Assembly (NCBI GenBank): GCA_965214705.1
Contig: OZ243972.1
Coordinates: 2,880,001-2,944,000 of the forward strand
Reading direction: 5' to 3'
DNA: 64,000 nt
DNA from: Alphaproteobacteria bacterium
GTDB lineage: Bacteria > Pseudomonadota > Alphaproteobacteria > UBA828
This document shows, piece by piece, positions 24,424 to 28,668 of the stretch. Under the pieces are notes generated by a model. It was not told the DNA's origin, made no database searches, and saw nothing but the letters and a program-made list of their open reading frames with translations. The stretch's first letter is position 1. Each line of letters starts with the position of its first letter. A program made the translations under genes and the position numbers.

Positions 24424-24636
24424 TCATGACTTGCCCGCGTGCTGGCGCTTCGCATCGGGGAGATCTGCCAGCCACTTCTGGATGTCGGAGAGGCGCCACG
24501 CGACTGCGCCGTTTGACCCAGGCCCGATACGCTTTGGAAGCGGAAAGCGCCCCTCTCGCATTGCGGCGTAGAGTCGCGAGGTGCTCATGCAGGTTATCTC
24601 CTCGACCTCGGGCCGGCGTAGCAGCCTGTCCGCCAT
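24424..24636 (-). CDS. alpA: AlpA family excisionase/regulator
   Basis: RLLRRPEVEEITCMSTSRLYAAMREGRFPLPKRIG...VAWRLSDIQKW; alternative start at 24669. Confidence 0.9.
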   Translation of the reverse strand: MADRLLRRPEVEEITCMSTSRLYAAMREGRFPLPKRIGPGSNGAVAWRLSDIQKWLADLPDAKRQHAGKS

Positions 24637-24728
24637 CAGGTCGGTTGCTGGTGTGCCATTTGTGGCCATGGGCCCGCTCCTGTTCATCGAACTTGCCCAG
24701 GAATAGGTAATAATTGCTGCCCGCACGA

Positions 24729-24755
24729 GAGACAGAATTCGCGGAATTGTGTCCC
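24729..24755. promoter_or_regulatory. Imperfect palindrome upstream of alpA (putative operator)
   Basis: GAGACAGAATTC-GCG-GAATTGTGTCCC, 10/12 inverted match. Confidence 0.45.
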
Positions 24756-24984
24756 TGTTAGGAGACCGCGTCTGCCTTCGCCTCCCTCTTCTTCGCCTTC
24801 TTCCTCACCCGGTCCCGTATTTTTGCCGTGAAAGTTTCTTCGGGACGGGCACGAGTAGGGGAATTACGACGAGGCGTCGCGTTGTCGGCGTGAGGCCGCG
24901 CTCGCGGCGCTTGGAGACGCGGTCGGACTTCGGGCTGCCCTGGATTGTGGCCCGGTGCCGACCGTGCTCCGACCAGGTAATGCT

Positions 24985-26247
24985 TCAGGCGGTCGCGGCC
25001 ATGGCAGTTGGGATACGACCGGGCTCGAGCAAGCCGTGCCGGCGGAGCATGCGGATCCAGCGCGGGGCATTTCGCCTGACCATGAGGGCTTCGTAGTCGG
25101 CTTCCGGATCGTAGTAAGGCTTGGCGTCGCGCAACACGACGTAGAGGACCCGCAGCATCTTGTGCGCGGTGGCGACGATGGCCCGCTTGTAACCGCGTCG
25201 GATCATGAGAGCCTTGTGGTAGCCGCGGAACTGGCAGCCATGGGTTCGCGCCGCGCCATGAGCGCATTCGACGAGCACGGCGCGCAGGGTCTTGCTGCCC
25301 ATGCGTGTGCGGGCGGCACGGCGCTTTCCGGCGCTTTGGCTGTTGCCGGGACAGAGACCGGCCCATGCGGCAAGCCGATCAGTGGAGCCGAAGGCGTCGA
25401 GGTCGGGGCCGATCTCGGCGAGGATGGCGCAGGCCGAGGCCCGGTCGATCCCGGGGATGGTCTGGAGAAGCAGGATGCGGTCCTCCCAGGGCACGAAGCC
25501 ATCGTCGATGGCCCGGTCGAACCCCTGGATGCGCTCCTCCAGCGCATCGTGCTCGCGAAGCAGATCGCACAGGATCAGGCGGTCCGCAGCGCTGAGGGAG
25601 AGGCTGAGGGCGTCGCCGAGCCGCTCGACCTTGTGCGCCACATGGTGGCTGAGCGAGGCCAGGATGGCGTCCGGTCCGAGCCCCTCAGCCAAGCCGTCGA
25701 GAACCCGTCTCCCGTTCGTGCCGAAGACGTCGGAGAGGACACCGCCGACGCGCACGCCGCTGCGGTCCAGGACCTTCTGCACCCGATTGCGCACCCGGCT
25801 GCGCTGACCGACGAGGGCGCGCCGGTAGCGGGTAAGTGCGCGCATCTCCCGGAACGCCTTGGGCGGCACGTGGCTGGGGCTTGCCAGACCGAACTGACAG
25901 ACCCGCGCCAGCCAGACGCTGTCCGCCACATCGGTCTTGCGGCCCTTCAGCTGCTTGACCTGCCGGGCGTTGACCAGCACCACGGAGATGCCGGCCGCCT
26001 CCAGCGCTTCGAACGGTGCCACCCAGTAGATGCCGGTGCCCTCCATCACTGCGGCATCGACTTTGCGCGCGAGCATCCATGCCACCATCTCGTCGATGCC
26101 GCTGGGCAGAGCCTCGAAGGTCCGCGTCGCGATCTGCGGCTCGCCGCCGCCGGGTGCACAGATGCGGATCGATGTGGTGATCTGCATCTTGTGCACGTCA
26201 ATGCCGGCGGCACGAGCATGGACGACGTGCAGTGTGTCGGTTCTCAT
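24985..26247 (-). CDS. IS110-family DEDD recombinase/transposase
   Basis: GIDVHK, MEGTGIYW, GRKTDVADS, TIPGI, CPGNSQSAGK, AHKML; RBS GAGGTG. Confidence 0.95.
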   Translation of the reverse strand: MRTDTLHVVHARAAGIDVHKMQITTSIRICAPGGGEPQIATRTFEALPSGIDEMVAWMLARKVDAAVMEGTGIYWVAPFEALEAAGISVVLVNARQVKQLKGRKTDVADSVWLARVCQFGLASPSHVPPKAFREMRALTRYRRALVGQRSRVRNRVQKVLDRSGVRVGGVLSDVFGTNGRRVLDGLAEGLGPDAILASLSHHVAHKVERLGDALSLSLSAADRLILCDLLREHDALEERIQGFDRAIDDGFVPWEDRILLLQTIPGIDRASACAILAEIGPDLDAFGSTDRLAAWAGLCPGNSQSAGKRRAARTRMGSKTLRAVLVECAHGAARTHGCQFRGYHKALMIRRGYKRAIVATAHKMLRVLYVVLRDAKPYYDPEADYEALMVRRNAPRWIRMLRRHGLLEPGRIPTAMAATA

Positions 26248-26269
26248 GATCTCACCTCTCGCTTGGGGA

Positions 26270-26460
26270 AGGCGGAGGCGGACGGGCCGGTCGGACTGAA
26301 CACACACCCGCCTCGGGTGCGGTGCGGTTTGCCGCGCGTCCACGGCTCGGCGGCCGGGAACAATCCGGGGCTCGGAGCCGACCGGCCGGGGCCAGTTTTT
26401 GATCGGGAAGCAGTGCTCACCACTAAAACGACGGCCATTGTGCCGCCTCCACCGACCGTG
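26270..26460 (-). ncRNA. Predicted bridge RNA in the IS110 left end (boundaries approximate)
   Basis: 9-nt ATCAAAAAC (26395-26403) matches the left target flank plus core; GCGGCAAAC (26327-26335) matches the donor junction at 8/9; each precedes a hairpin. Confidence 0.72.
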
Positions 26461-27336
26461 ACTCTAATGCCGCTATGCCACGCAGGGGCAGCGTTCATTC
26501 CCTCGACCGAGGCACCGGACTTTCATCATCCGGGGTGGATCGCTACACGCCGGCCATGTCTGTTTTTGATGGTCTCCGGGTCCGCATCGATGAGGCCTTC
26601 CTTTCGACACGCCGCTGCAACTATCTCCAGCGCATCCTTCAGTTTCGAGTTTGTCAGCTTGACCAAGATATCGATTGCCAAAGTAATCTTCTGGTCGCGC
26701 CTCCAATTCATCGGCTTCGGTCCCCGTCGGCGCTCTGGACGATCAGTGAACAGCGCGGTGCTCACCCAATTTCGCAGACTGGGCGGAATCGGCTCACCCA
26801 AACTGACAATCAAAGCCACGAGATGACGCAATAAACTGTCGGCTCGCGGGTCGGTCTTGGCCTGTTCCAGCCACTTTCGGCATTGCAGACATGCGTCGAA
26901 CCGGTAGTAGACATCGAGCATGCTGATAGCCTTGTAGCGCACAATGGCGTCTTGGTAGGTCAATCCGGCTAGCGTTCCGTCCCCGACATTCAAGATGTGC
27001 CTGGCCATCAACTCGCGCCGAGAGTCGATCTTCTCCGCTGCCTCTCTATCTCTCGACGCAGGCTCCAAGAATGGACTAAAGCGCTTCTCTTCAGTGGCCG
27101 CTACATTCCAGCCCCGATCAAACTCTGGATCATCATCCCCTCCGTCGTTAGGTTTTGGATTATCAACGACCAAGCTTTGGCACGCTTTGAAGTGGTCGAT
27201 CCGATCTTTCTCACTTAGGTATTGCTTCAGGTCCGCCAAGCTGTGTTCGATCAAGAAGGGGCCATCCTCATAGACGAGGGCGTGGAGGCGAGGAGGGACA
27301 GGGGGCGAGCACCCTTCCAGGCAGGGGCAACGTGGC

Positions 27337-28529
27337 CTATCCAAGGTGGCGCACCATCGGCACGACGCGTCCTTCCTCGCCCTCCAGGTAGGCCGCCCAT
27401 TGCTCCATAAGAGCGCGGCGCTTCTCGAGCAGCGTAGACCGCGCGTAGGCCGCCTCGACGGCGTTGCCCACTGCGTGGGCCAAGCAAAGCTCCATGACCG
27501 CGTGTGGCGCGTTCGTACACTCGCCCGCCCAGTCCCGGAAGCTCGACTGGAAGCCGTGGACGGTGGTGCGATCGGCGAATTCGAGATCGCGCAGCAGCTT
27601 GGTCAGTGTCATGTCACTCATCGGCTTGCCCGGCCGCAGAGGCGACGGAAATACGAGGTCGCTACCGAAATGTTGGAAGGACTTGGCTTCCGCCAAAATC
27701 GCCATGGCCCGAGGCGAGAGGGGCACCCGGTGCTCGACCTTGGCCTTAATGCGTTCCGCTGGGACGGTCCAGGTGGCGGCGTCCATATTTATCTCTGACC
27801 AGAACGCCCCACGCGCCTCGCCGCTGCGCGCGGCCGTCAGGATCAGGAACTCGAGACACCACTTCGACGCCAGGGAGGCTCTCGATCACCGCACCGCCTC
27901 GATCACCTTATGCACCTCTTCGTAGGGCATCGCTCGAAAATGGTTTTTGACTCTCGGCATGGGCGGCAGAGCACCGTCGATGGTCTCGCCGGCGACGTTA
28001 TTCTCGACATACCCGTGAGCCATGGCCCACTTGAGGATCGTGCAGACGCGCTGCCGCACGCGCCGCGCGCTTTCCATGCGTACATGCCAATGGGTGTAAG
28101 GATTCGCAGCATGTCCTCTCGGCCGATCCGGTCAACGGGCATGTCGCCGATGACCGGAAAGGCGTGCCGCTCAAGCGACTGCCACCAGCCCACCGTGCGC
28201 TTGCCGTTCCGCCATCGCGGCTTGTTAGCCTCGAACGTTCGTTCCGCAGCCTCGCGAAACGTGGGTGTAGCGACCTTGCGCTTCTTGGCGAGCGGGTCGC
28301 CGCCGGCCGCGATCAACCTGCGGTTGTGGGCTACAGCCTCGCGAGCCTGGGCAAGTCCGACATCTGGGAACCGCCCCAGACCGATATCTCGCCGCTTGCC
28401 TGCGACCACCACGCGCTGGATCCACGACCGTGCGCCGGTGCGTGAGATCTTGAGGTAGAGTCCGGCTCCGTCGCCGTGCAAGCTGGGCGTCTTCAGGCTC
28501 CGTATCCTCGCTGCTGTCAGTTTCGGCAT
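27337..28529 (-). pseudogene. P4-like (Arm-DNA-binding) tyrosine integrase, inactivated
   Basis: DGAGLYL, GLGRFPDVGL, TAARSGE; 1-bp deletion near 28089, TGA at 27886-27888, catalytic HGFR changed to HGFQ. Confidence 0.9.
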
Positions 28530-28668
28530 TTCCCATCCCCACATTCGTGCCAACATCAATGTTGGGAATATATGTAAAGCGCTGAGAACACGCGGGAGAG
28601 ATTGTCTCTATAAGATACTGAAGTAGGGGAGTTTTTAGAACTTTCCGAAAGCACTTGGGGAAGGAGAT

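What the first reader, a model, noticed from the sequence alone, without database searches (positions are those of the whole stretch)
24823..26563. IS110 with readable bridge-RNA guides and an insertion across a core mismatch
Seen (minus strand): junctions are ATCAAAA-AC-AGAC and ACGGCAA-AA-ATAC. The left non-coding end has ATCAAAAAC (26395-26403) and GCGGCAAAC (26327-26335), each 7 nt plus AC and each followed by a hairpin. Using the donor implied by the guide (ACGGCAA-AC-AGAC) gives an empty site ATCAAAA-AA-ATAC that restores the host frame (ETIKKIRDRVRKK...). Known: IS621 uses 7+2-nt left guides. Inference: a bridge recombinase with an AC core that accepted an AA target core. Right-hand guides are only tentative (GGAT and GTGT, each 3/4).
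Basis: partly seen in the sequence, partly recalled or inferred. Interest (0 to 1): 0.7.

Follow-up and report, generated by a model that had tools for sequence, protein, structure and literature searches.

The report
IS110 element with readable bridge RNA
This is an intact RNA-guided IS110-family insertion sequence whose guide segments can be read from the DNA, but the supposed jump across a mismatched crossover site most likely comes from placing the crossover two bases too far right.

Summary
Window 26563..24823 (minus strand) is an intact IS110-family element: DEDD plus Tnp transposase, a 316-nt left end and a 162-nt right end. ATCAAAAAC (left target guide, LTG) and GCGGCAAAC (left donor guide, LDG) are real bridge-RNA guides. 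In 15 related IS lineages the same two slots track the left flank and the right end, inside an RNA fold with compensatory base-pair changes.

The "AC core that accepted an AA target" is not supported. The terminal AC of both guides also begins the element's left end in 14 of 15 lineages. Yet the two bases at that position of the right junction differ from site to site. In sister elements the crossover lies before it. The dinucleotide shared by donor and target is AA (donor ACGGC-AA-ACAGAC, target ATCAA-AA-AAATAC), so no mismatch is needed.

The right target guide is probably CGUUUU, on the 5' strand of the target loop. That strand order is the reverse of IS621's.

The main natural target is the A-run of an IS630-type transposase gene. 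Empty alleles seen have AAGAAAA or six A's, never seven A's, so the register within the A-run stays open.

Verdict: a new variant of a known system, of modest interest.

The parts
24823..26563 (-). IS110-family insertion sequence (ACAGAC...ACGGCAA), 1741 bp
   Evidence: 100% identical copies at C1:3959999-3961739 and C1:3989689-3991429, plus a 5'-truncated copy on C3. Identity with the other copies ends at these coordinates apart from shared A's.
24985..26247 (-). Transposase/recombinase gene (420 aa plus stop)
   Evidence: PF01548 1.7e-24 and PF02371 1.2e-19. NF033542 'IS110 family RNA-guided transposase' scores 268 bits against a cutoff of 140. It aligns to the IS621 transposase 8wt6 with GID, ME.TG, KTD..D and the S.G serine aligned. 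D17, E69, D106, D109 and S305 are invariant in 11 relatives.
26248..26563 (-). Left non-coding end (316 nt) that holds the bridge RNA
26271..26453 (-). Predicted bridge RNA body, closed by helix P1 (26453-26443 with 26281-26271)
   Evidence: P1 has 11 pairs, 7 with changes on both sides, 95% of cells paired. Model R2 scores 134.8 bits here.
26390..26436 (-). Target-binding loop: helix P2 (GGCCG 26436-26432 with UGGCC 26394-26390) encloses the 5' strand, hairpin P2a (26422-26404) and the LTG
   Evidence: P2 covaries: GGCCG/UGGCC, GGACG/UGUCC, GGUCG/UGACC, GAGCG/UGCUU. Its G-U pairs fit transcription of this strand.
26423..26431 (-). 5' strand of the target loop, UCGUUUUAG. The candidate right target guide is CGUUUU (26430-26425)
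   Evidence: It pairs with top-strand AAAACG(G) of the IS630 target: 6 Watson-Crick pairs plus 1 G-U. The equivalent strand gives Watson-Crick runs of 5 or more in 6 of 12 lineages, against 31 of 605 non-self pairs. L033 gives 7 after its right end was corrected.
26395..26403 (-). Left target guide AUCAAAAAC, read as AUCAA (left target) + AA (core) + AC (equal to the element's first two bases)
26327..26335 (-). Left donor guide GCGGCAAAC, read as (G)CGGC + AA (core) + AC
   Evidence: The slot covaries with the right end: CGGC, CAGC, UGGC and CAAC each match their own element's end.
26300..26325 (-). Hairpin P5 directly 3' of the LDG
   Evidence: 11 pairs, 6 with changes on both sides.
26378..26387 (-). 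5' strand of long-range helix P3 (GGCCGGUCGG). It pairs with 26294-26285 (CCGACCGGCC) and encloses the donor-guide region
   Evidence: Duplex energies beat shuffles, mean z = -2.5 over 16 sequences. The helix sequences differ between lineages while staying complementary.
26564..26570 (-). Left flank ATCAAAA. In my reading ATCAA (26570-26566) is the left target and AA (26565-26564) the left copy of the core
   Evidence: The register within the A-run is inferred, not proven.
24823..24829 (-). Right end ACGGCAA = left donor ACGGC plus the right copy of the core AA (24824-24823)
24817..24822 (-). Right target AAATAC (host sequence)
   Evidence: The right flank is 100% identical to the paralog over 263 nt.
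26564..27344 (-). Interrupted host gene, 5' part. No Pfam family. Its 3' remainder runs 24822..24758
   Evidence: An uninterrupted paralog lies at C1:~676.6-677.1 kb.

Best explanation
An active-looking IS110-family element whose left end encodes a bridge RNA of about 183 nt.

The target loop is an internal loop closed by helix P2.
- Its 3' strand carries the left target guide AUCAA-AA-AC. [quoted passage not shown]
- Its 5' strand carries the right target guide CGUUUU. [quoted passage not shown]
- The two guide pairings overlap on a 2-nt core, AA.

The donor guide (G)CGGC-AA-AC reads the joined ends of the excised element, ACGGC-AA-ACAGAC.

The DEDD/serine recombinase exchanges strands at AA. 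That gives the left junction ATCAA-AA|ACAGAC and the right junction ACGGC-AA|AAATAC. The AC after the left core is therefore the element's own first two bases (right donor), not a core. Donor and target cores match, and no mismatch was crossed.

The element's usual target is the A-run (A/T)TCAAAAAA-CGGC in an IS630-type transposase gene. The window copy sits in a look-alike site of an island gene. There the left half and core match fully (7 of 7), while the right half pairs only through its A's.

Shown: family membership, the guide slots and their covariation, the RNA helices, and the junction sequences.

Inferred: the exact register in the A-run, the right target guide assignment, RNA expression, and the chemistry (by homology with IS621).
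For: (1) Protein. Pfam, NCBIfam and the alignment to IS621 place it in the family, with the catalytic residues conserved.

(2) LTG covariation. The 5 variable guide bases match the left flank at a mean of 3.33 of 5 over 27 sites in 14 lineages. Non-self pairs average 1.16 of 5 (627 pairs; 43 of 627 reach 3 or more).

(3) LDG covariation. The guide variants CGGC, CAGC, UGGC and CAAC each equal their own element's right end.

(4) RNA fold. 93.5% of cells are paired. 16 of 30 pairs change on both sides. 0 of 500 shuffles and no slid register come close. P3 is supported by duplex energies.

(5) Position of the crossover.
- IS-B (72% identical to this element, 10 copies at 9 sites) always has ...ACAA-AACAGTC on the left and CACGGCAA-NN on the right, with NN = GA, AG, AA, GC, AC, AT, AT, AG, AG.
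- IS-C copy L027 has ACAGCAA-TAAAG.
- So nothing after CAA is donor-derived at the right junction, and AA is the only dinucleotide shared by donor and every target.

(6) The right target guide pairing begins at that AA: L030 CGUGUU with AACACG, L035 CGCUUU with AAAGCG, IS-A CGUUUU with AAAACG, L033 GUUUAUU with AATAAAC.

(7) Other IS-A copies have (A/T)TCAAAA|AC on the left and ACGGCAA|AACGGCG on the right, in IS630 copies.

(8) In IS621 the top strands are cut immediately 3' of the core (PMC11208158 passages). That fits LT-AA|AC.
Against: - The register cannot be fixed inside A-runs. Conservation of A's requires (A's in the donor junction) + (A's in the empty site) = 10 for the window site and 9 for the IS630 site.
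  - A donor with 3 A's fits the LDG (GGCAAAC) and the paralog's 7-position run.
  - The X10 contig appears to be an empty allele with six A's, which implies 4 A's. Sister IS-B's tandem junction shows 4 A's directly.
  - Uninterrupted IS630 copies in relatives have A7, A8 or A6T, which implies 2 or fewer.
  - No single value fits all proxies.
- IS-B's nine sites pair with its candidate right target guide only through the AA (run of 2 in all 9). Either that assignment does not hold for IS-B, or IS-B inserts promiscuously.
- No right donor guide could be identified.
- L033 has GC instead of AC at its left end without a matching guide change.
- No sigma-70-like promoter was found, and there is no direct RNA evidence for IS-A.
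- The alignment used was fitted to the model.
Confidence: 0.7

Rival explanations
1. The guides are 7+2 as in IS621, the core is AC, and this copy inserted into an AA core. The mismatch was resolved as AC on the left and AA on the right.
For: - Both guides end in AC directly before a helix, which is the position of the CU core in IS621's 9-nt guides (PMC11208160 passages).
- The LTG matches the left junction 9 of 9.
- The donor implied by the LDG (GGCAAAC) has AC there.
- IS621 tolerates some variation at the first core position (PMC11208158 passages).
Against: - The pattern 'left = AC, right = something else' is seen at every junction examined: all 3 IS-A left and 4 right junctions, and the right junctions of the relatives. 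It would have to be the rule rather than an event.
- Targets show no AC enrichment at that position. Across the IS-B sites the dinucleotide directly after CAA is AC only once, in L017.
- Under 7+2, IS-B's left donor CGGCAAA should survive at the right junction. It reads CGGCAAG in L005 and L015. IS-C's CAGCAAA reads CAGCAAT in L027.
- IS-B's two guides would also carry different cores, AC and AU.
- With top strands cut 3' of the core and top-strand exchange dominant (passages only), a mismatch should give target core on the left and donor core on the right. The opposite is seen.
Confidence: 0.08
2. Same AA-core mechanism, in a different register. The donor junction has four A's (ACGGC-AA-AACAGAC, as in sister IS-B) and the pre-insertion allele had six A's (ATCA-AA-AAATAC). 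The LTG would then read 4+2+3.
For: - The X10 metagenome contig joins 24820 to 26563. Its right side is 99.4% identical (2 differences in 321 nt), and record positions 30-350 of that side follow a 29-letter left side. That gives ATCAAAAAATAC with six A's.
- The IS-B tandem junction TTTCACGGCAAAACAGTC shows four A's directly.
- IS-A and IS-B share their end sequences and nearly the same LDG.
Against: - The IS630 target would then have had only five A's, while relatives have 7-8.
- The LDG has three A's.
- The tool marks the X10 joint 'between: not known', and the left side is only 29 letters.
- The six-A allele breaks the frame that the paralog keeps.
Confidence: 0.3
3. The 9-mers are DNA-level features, such as subterminal repeats or protein binding sites that resemble the ends, and not RNA guides.
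For: No RNA data exist for IS-A and no promoter-like site was found. The single-sequence fold of the whole left end is not better than shuffles (z = -1.1).
Against: - The slots lie in loops of a fold with many compensatory changes and strand-specific G-U pairs.
- The variable guide bases follow the host flank, which is not part of the element, in 14 lineages.
- NCBIfam files the protein as an RNA-guided transposase.
- One coral metatranscriptome contig of the IS-B left end has depth about 300, against about 20 for neighbouring contigs. This is only a weak hint.
Confidence: 0.03

Closest known systems
IS621 (IS110 group) and its bridge RNA (Durrant 2024, PMC11208160; Hiraizumi 2024, PMC11208158; passages and section 12 read)
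   Same: - DEDD RuvC-like plus Tnp-serine recombinase.
- Left end longer than right end, with the RNA encoded in the left end.
- Separate target and donor guide segments. The left guides have the sense of the top strand, and the right target guide is complementary to it.
- A 2-nt core shared by donor and target lies in the overlap of the left and right target guides.
- Crossover directly 3' of the core.
   Different: - The core is AA, not CT.
- The left guides read 5(-6)+2+2, with two or three conserved extra bases (AC or AAC) after the core, instead of 7+2.
- The strand order in the target loop is right guide 5', left guide 3'; IS621 has the LTG near nt 50-58 and the RTG near 74-80.
- The donor guide lies between two hairpins inside a long-range helix (P3), not in a simple second internal loop.
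- An outer closing helix (P1) is present.
- Protein similarity is remote (E = 2.7e-16).
IS1111-type seekRNA/bridge RNA (Siddiquee 2024, PMC11187229, passages read; Durrant 2024 section 12)
   Same: The two target-recognising segments are in the reverse order relative to the IS110 type. Donor-binding bases sit in a multi-loop.
   Different: [quoted passage not shown] Here the RNA is upstream. I saw no such repeats by eye and did not test for them formally.
Half-match/off-target insertion and top-strand-first transposition of IS110 elements (preprints 10.64898/2026.08.31.748434, abstract only; 10.1101/2025.10.25.684509, passages)
   Same: - The window site matches the left target guide and core fully but the right guide poorly.
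- Sister IS-B inserts at sites that share little more than (G)ACAA.
- IS-B forms a head-to-tail tandem, a product that one of these preprints reports.
   Different: These are natural genomic copies. Nothing here measures the strandedness or efficiency of the reaction.

Membership tests
IS110 family (protein and element) | DEDD RuvC-like domain (PF01548) plus Tnp domain (PF02371) | tested here: met
   (1.7e-24 and 1.2e-19, both above cutoffs). NF033542 scores 268 bits against a cutoff of 140.
IS110 family (protein and element) | Catalytic D, E, D, D and the Tnp-domain serine | tested here: met
   D17, E69, D106, D109 and S305 are invariant in 11 relatives. They align with the corresponding IS621 motifs. 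The IS621 residue numbers come from PMC11208158 passages.
IS110 family (protein and element) | No long terminal inverted repeats; no duplication beyond a shared dinucleotide; site-specific insertion | tested here: met
   The junctions share only A's. All 3 non-window copies of the 4 IS-A copies lie at one IS630 site type (the truncated C3 copy shows only its right junction). Terminal repeats were judged by eye only.
IS110 group (as opposed to IS1111 group) | Left end longer than right end, and the RNA in the left end | tested here: met
   Left end 316 nt, right end 162 nt. The RNA model hits 26267-26458.
IS621-type bridge RNA | Left target guide with top-strand sense that covaries with the left flank | tested here: met
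   3.33 of 5 for self against 1.16 of 5 for non-self.
IS621-type bridge RNA | Left donor guide matching the element's right end | tested here: met
   four guide variants, each matched by its own right end.
IS621-type bridge RNA | Right target guide complementary to core plus right flank | tested here: inconclusive
   supported in 6 of 12 lineages, or 7 with L033. It fails for IS-B at 9 of 9 sites. The window site pairs only through 4 A's.
IS621-type bridge RNA | Core is the last two bases of the 9-nt left guides (7+2); CT core | tested here: not met
   The crossover lies upstream of the guides' terminal AC. The shared dinucleotide is AA.
IS621-type bridge RNA | Loop order: left guide on the 5' strand, right guide on the 3' strand | tested here: not met
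   The LTG is on the 3' strand of the loop closed by P2. The only variable single-stranded partner is the 5' strand.
IS621-type bridge RNA | Right donor guide | tested here: inconclusive
   Hand comparison of the segment 3' of P5 with the left ends of the lineages, using the alignment, gave no consistent pairing.
IS621-type bridge RNA | The RNA is made and binds the recombinase | not testable with these tools
   The only hint is a high-depth RNA-library contig of the IS-B left end.
IS1111 group | RNA in a long right end; 7-17 bp subterminal inverted repeats | tested here: not met
   The RNA is in the left end. Repeats were not searched with a tool.
Rfam families | Match to any curated RNA model | tested here: not met
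   0 matches at E <= 1 over 24700-26700.

The most novel reading that the evidence does not exclude
This lineage is an architectural intermediate between the IS110 and IS1111 groups. Its bridge RNA is encoded in the left end, but its target loop has the IS1111-like order (right guide first) and its donor guide sits in a multi-loop. In addition, the conserved AC (AAC in IS-B) after the AA core of the left guides may be a 'bottom-strand handshake': bases that cannot pair with the target but can pair with the donor's right half once the bottom strands are exchanged, pulling the reaction forward.
Probability: 0.2. Interest if true: 0.6.

Novelty: new variant of a known kind. Interest (0 to 1): 0.3.

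Why it matters
Bridge recombinases are being developed as programmable genome-rearrangement tools, and their design rules come almost entirely from IS621 and close relatives.

- This family shows that the IS621 '7+2, core last' rule cannot be copied onto other IS110 elements. Here the core (AA) sits two or three bases inside the left guides, and the two target guides are in swapped strand order.
- For annotation, the lesson is practical: fix the core from several insertions before calling a mismatch.
- Biologically, the element specialises in the slippery A-run of another transposon's transposase gene. That is a tidy case of one insertion sequence targeting another.

Tried and rejected
- Rfam, with permissive thresholds over 24700-26700: nothing.
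- Single-sequence fold of the whole left end: not informative (z = -1.1). RNAalifold on the first alignment gave only partial helices. A pair scan on alignment A2 was blurred by misaligned columns. Constrained folds and a covariance-model alignment were used instead.
- Model R1 was built with my dot-bracket off by one in P1 and lower P5 (found). It was discarded and never used.
- Plasmid collection, megablast: no match.
- Model R2 in 150 other genomes sampled from the class: 0 of 150 matched; only G000 did. Write this as 'not found in those searched'.
- Metagenome scan with the protein alignment: of the 80 loci kept, only L042 and L043 carry this RNA. L069, L120 and L058 give weak hits (E = 1.5e-4 to 1e-2), which I did not pursue.
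- Own genome: no uninterrupted copy of the IS630 target and no IS-A tandem or circle junction.
- Right donor guide: no consistent complementarity found by hand.
- Promoter scan: 0 sites.
- Number of A's in the donor junction: it cannot be settled. The proxies give 2, 3 or 4.
- Read laying: parts without contig cover are not interpreted. X19 gave only three short contigs.
- Supplementary files of papers were not opened. Durrant's supplementary tables and Extended Data Fig. 10c, which cover six diverse bridge RNAs, might already show a structure like this one.

Rows dropped:
- L026 and L027 (same IS as L025) and L039-L041 (partial proteins) were left out of the alignments.
- L029 and L036 were dropped after because their left ends did not align.
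- In one search L043 had no left junction by my regex, and L033 was mis-registered (scored 0). By hand they score 3 of 5 and 4 of 5.
- In one search the right ends of L024, L042, L043 and IS-B L020 were missing, and L033's was a false regex hit, corrected by hand.
Full report
**What is there.**
Read on the minus strand, window 26563..24823 is a 1741-bp insertion sequence. It consists of:
- a 316-nt non-coding left end;
- a 420-codon gene (26247..24985);
- a 162-nt right end.

The protein carries PF01548 and PF02371 and passes NCBIfam's 'IS110 family RNA-guided transposase' model at 268 bits against a cutoff of 140. It aligns with the solved IS621 transposase, with the GID, E, D..D and serine motifs in register. 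Those residues are invariant in 11 relatives.

The element interrupts a gene of unknown family. That gene lies in a P4-like island with an Arm-type integrase (in two ORFs), AlpA and a primase/DUF3631 protein.

**The observation.**
ATCAAAAAC occurs only at the left junction and at 26395-26403; 0.21 occurrences are expected by chance. CGGCAAAC alone is not unusual.

**Other copies.**
The genome holds two more full copies, 100% identical, and one 5'-truncated copy. All three lie in copies of an IS630-type transposase gene.
- Left: GGCATCACC(A/T)TCAAAA|AC|AGAC.
- Right: ACGGCAA|AA|CGGCGCAC.

Uninterrupted IS630 relatives in 8 loci of other genomes read TTC-A7-CGGCGC, A8 or A6T at this spot. The A-run sits where ...GITFKKTAHASEQ is encoded, and its length varies.

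**Empty alleles of the window site.**
- A paralogous island in the same genome has the intact gene with ATCAAGAAAATAC, reading ETIKKIRDRVRKK. Its right flank is 100% identical over 263 nt, and its left flank differs at 15 of 235 positions.
- A sponge-metagenome contig (X6) has the same AAGAAAA and shares four of the paralog's variants, so it is the paralog type.
- A second metagenome contig (X10) joins 24820 to 26563. Taken at face value this is ATCAAAAAATAC, six A's. The short side is only 29 letters, and the tool marks 'between: not known'.
- No allele with seven A's was seen.

**The guides are real.**
A sister element, IS-B (72% identical), has 2 copies in this genome and 8 in a congener. 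Thirteen further lineages came from MAGs and metagenomes at 56-80% protein identity. All share an alignable left end.
- *LTG slot.* In the slot cccg-N(5-6)-AAAC-ug, the variable bases follow each element's own left flank. The mean match is 3.33 of 5 over 27 sites in 14 lineages, against 1.16 of 5 for 627 non-self pairs.
- *LDG slot.* In the slot GGACG-N(1-2)-NNNC-AAA.., the bases CGGC, CAGC, UGGC or CAAC equal the element's own right end.
- *Fold.* A covariance model built on four helices aligns 16 strong members. On that alignment 93.5% of cells pair and 16 of 30 pairs change on both sides. No shuffle (0 of 500) and no slid register approaches this. The alignment was fitted to the model, which inflates pairing somewhat.
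- *P2.* This helix closes the target loop and shows GGCCG/UGGCC, GGACG/UGUCC, GGUCG/UGACC and GAGCG/UGCUU.
- *P3.* This long-range helix encloses the donor-guide region. Its mean z is -2.5 against shuffles, and the helix sequences differ between lineages while staying complementary.

**Where the crossover is.**
In this family the evidence points elsewhere.
- The guides' last two bases are AC in every LTG. The element's left end begins with AC in 14 of 15 lineages (L033 has GC).
- The two bases at the corresponding place of the right junction differ from site to site: TA, TA, GA, CA, GG, GG, AG, GC, TA, CT. IS-A has AA in both of its site types.
- For IS-B, nine independent sites all read ...ACAA-AACAGTC on the left and CACGGCAA-NN on the right. 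In L005 and L015 the base right after CAA is G.
- IS-C copy L027 reads ACAGCAA-TAAAG.

So donor-derived sequence at the right junction stops at ...CAA. The only dinucleotide that donor and all targets share is AA.

A head-to-tail IS-B dimer gives its donor junction directly: TTTCACGGCAAAACAGTC.

With AA as the core, the window insertion reads:
- target ATCAA-AA-AAATAC;
- donor ACGGC-AA-ACAGAC;
- products ATCAA-AA|ACAGAC and ACGGC-AA|AAATAC.

These are the observed sequences, with matched cores. The cut falls immediately 3' of the core, as in IS621 (PMC11208158 passages).

A genuine AC/AA mismatch, under top-strand-first exchange, should leave the target core on the left and the donor core on the right (same passages; preprint 10.1101/2025.10.25.684509 passages). 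The genome shows the reverse at every copy.

**The right target guide.**
The LTG lies on the 3' strand of the loop closed by P2. The only variable single-stranded partner is the 9-11-nt 5' strand. That strand is complementary to the top strand, starting at the AA and running into site-specific bases:

| Lineage | 5'-strand segment | Top strand paired |
|---|---|---|
| IS-A (IS630 site) | CGUUUU | AAAACG(G) |
| L030 | CGUGUU | AACACG |
| L035 | CGCUUU | AAAGCG |
| IS-C | UUAUUU | AAATAA |
| L033 | GUUUAUU | AATAAAC |

Watson-Crick runs of 5 or more occur in 6 of 12 lineages, against 31 of 605 non-self pairs (L033 corrected by hand).

Two results go against it. It fails for IS-B at all nine sites, and the window site pairs only through its four A's. 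So the window copy looks like a secondary site that matches the left guide and core but not the right guide.

Right guide first, left guide second, is the reverse of IS621, where the LTG lies near nt 50-58 and the RTG near 74-80. It resembles what Siddiquee et al. report for IS1111-type seekRNAs (PMC11187229 passages). Durrant et al. note diverse structures and multi-loop donor sites in IS1111 elements (section 12).

**What stays open.**
- *The register inside the A-runs.* The A's must add up: donor plus empty site equals 10 at the window site and 9 at the IS630 site. Three A's in the donor fits the LDG and the paralog's length. Four fits X10 and IS-B. Two fits IS630 with A7. I prefer three at about 55:35:10. 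All three keep a matched AA.
- *The role of the conserved AC.* IS-B has AAC, and its left end also has one more A.
- *The right donor guide.* None was found.
- *Expression.* No promoter-like site was found. A 394-nt contig of the IS-B left end has depth about 300 in one coral metatranscriptome, against about 20 for other contigs. This is a weak hint at best.

**Verdict.**
This is a genuine bridge-RNA element with readable left guides. The 'insertion across a core mismatch' is most likely a register error that comes from applying IS621's layout. The family is a structural variant of the known system in three ways: an AA core, 5+2+2 left guides, and a reversed target-loop order. It was not found in Rfam or in 150 other sampled genomes of the class. 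I could not see the supplements of the key papers, so the architecture may already be catalogued there.

Noticed in passing
G000 C1:363589-365014 and 425563-426988 (L005, L006); G032 loci L010, L015, L017, L019-L023: Sister element IS-B (72% identical) has 10 copies at 9 different sites. The sites share little beyond (G)ACAA and do not fit its candidate right target guide, so its target choice looks promiscuous. L019/L020 form a head-to-tail tandem dimer.
   Followed up: partly
G000 C1:3959989-3959998 and 3989679-3989688; window 26564-26573: The window site and the IS630 site share ACC(A/T)TCAAAA, more than the 5-7 bases the guide covers. One IS630 copy reads ATC (a perfect guide match), where 8 relatives' IS630 copies read TTC and a ninth (L129) reads ATTC. 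I have no explanation for this.
   Followed up: no
Loci L123-L129, L136 (IS630 copies in related genomes): The A-run in the IS630 transposase gene varies: A6T, A7, A8, AATAAAA. Some lengths are out of frame, as expected for a slippage or frameshift site. This run is IS-A's preferred target.
   Followed up: partly
L131 (G024:C2, ~19.2-19.6 kb): A transposase-less remnant of an IS-A-like element sits at the same IS630 site (..GCGGCAAAA|CCGCGCAC). It joins the distal part of the left end directly to a short right end.
   Followed up: partly
window 27337-28559 (minus strand): The island's integrase is split into two ORFs: Arm-binding plus central domain (27903-28559) and catalytic domain (27337-27786). 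It is probably a frameshifted pseudogene.
   Followed up: no
G000 C1:676635-677134 versus window 24560-24822 and 26566-26800: A paralogous island copy is 100% identical to the window on the right of the insertion site (263 nt) but only 93.6% identical on the left (15 of 235 differ). This is a sharp change of identity exactly at the insertion point.
   Followed up: partly
L038 (OZ242031.1, 3.63 Mb): This copy's LTG (UUUACAAAC) does not match its left flank (1 of 5), and its protein match is broken. It may be a decayed or off-target copy.
   Followed up: no
L069, L120, L058 (metagenome loci, transposases 36-38% identical): Model R2 gives weak full-length hits (E = 1.5e-4 to 1e-2) upstream of distant IS110 transposases, so the RNA architecture may reach further than the 15 lineages studied.
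   Followed up: no
Runs X6, X8, X13, X16, X18 (sponge metagenomes), X14 and X20 (coral): By their labels, runs that hold the element or parts of it are mostly sponge, coral and marine metagenomes. Of these, only X6 and X20 were laid.
   Followed up: no
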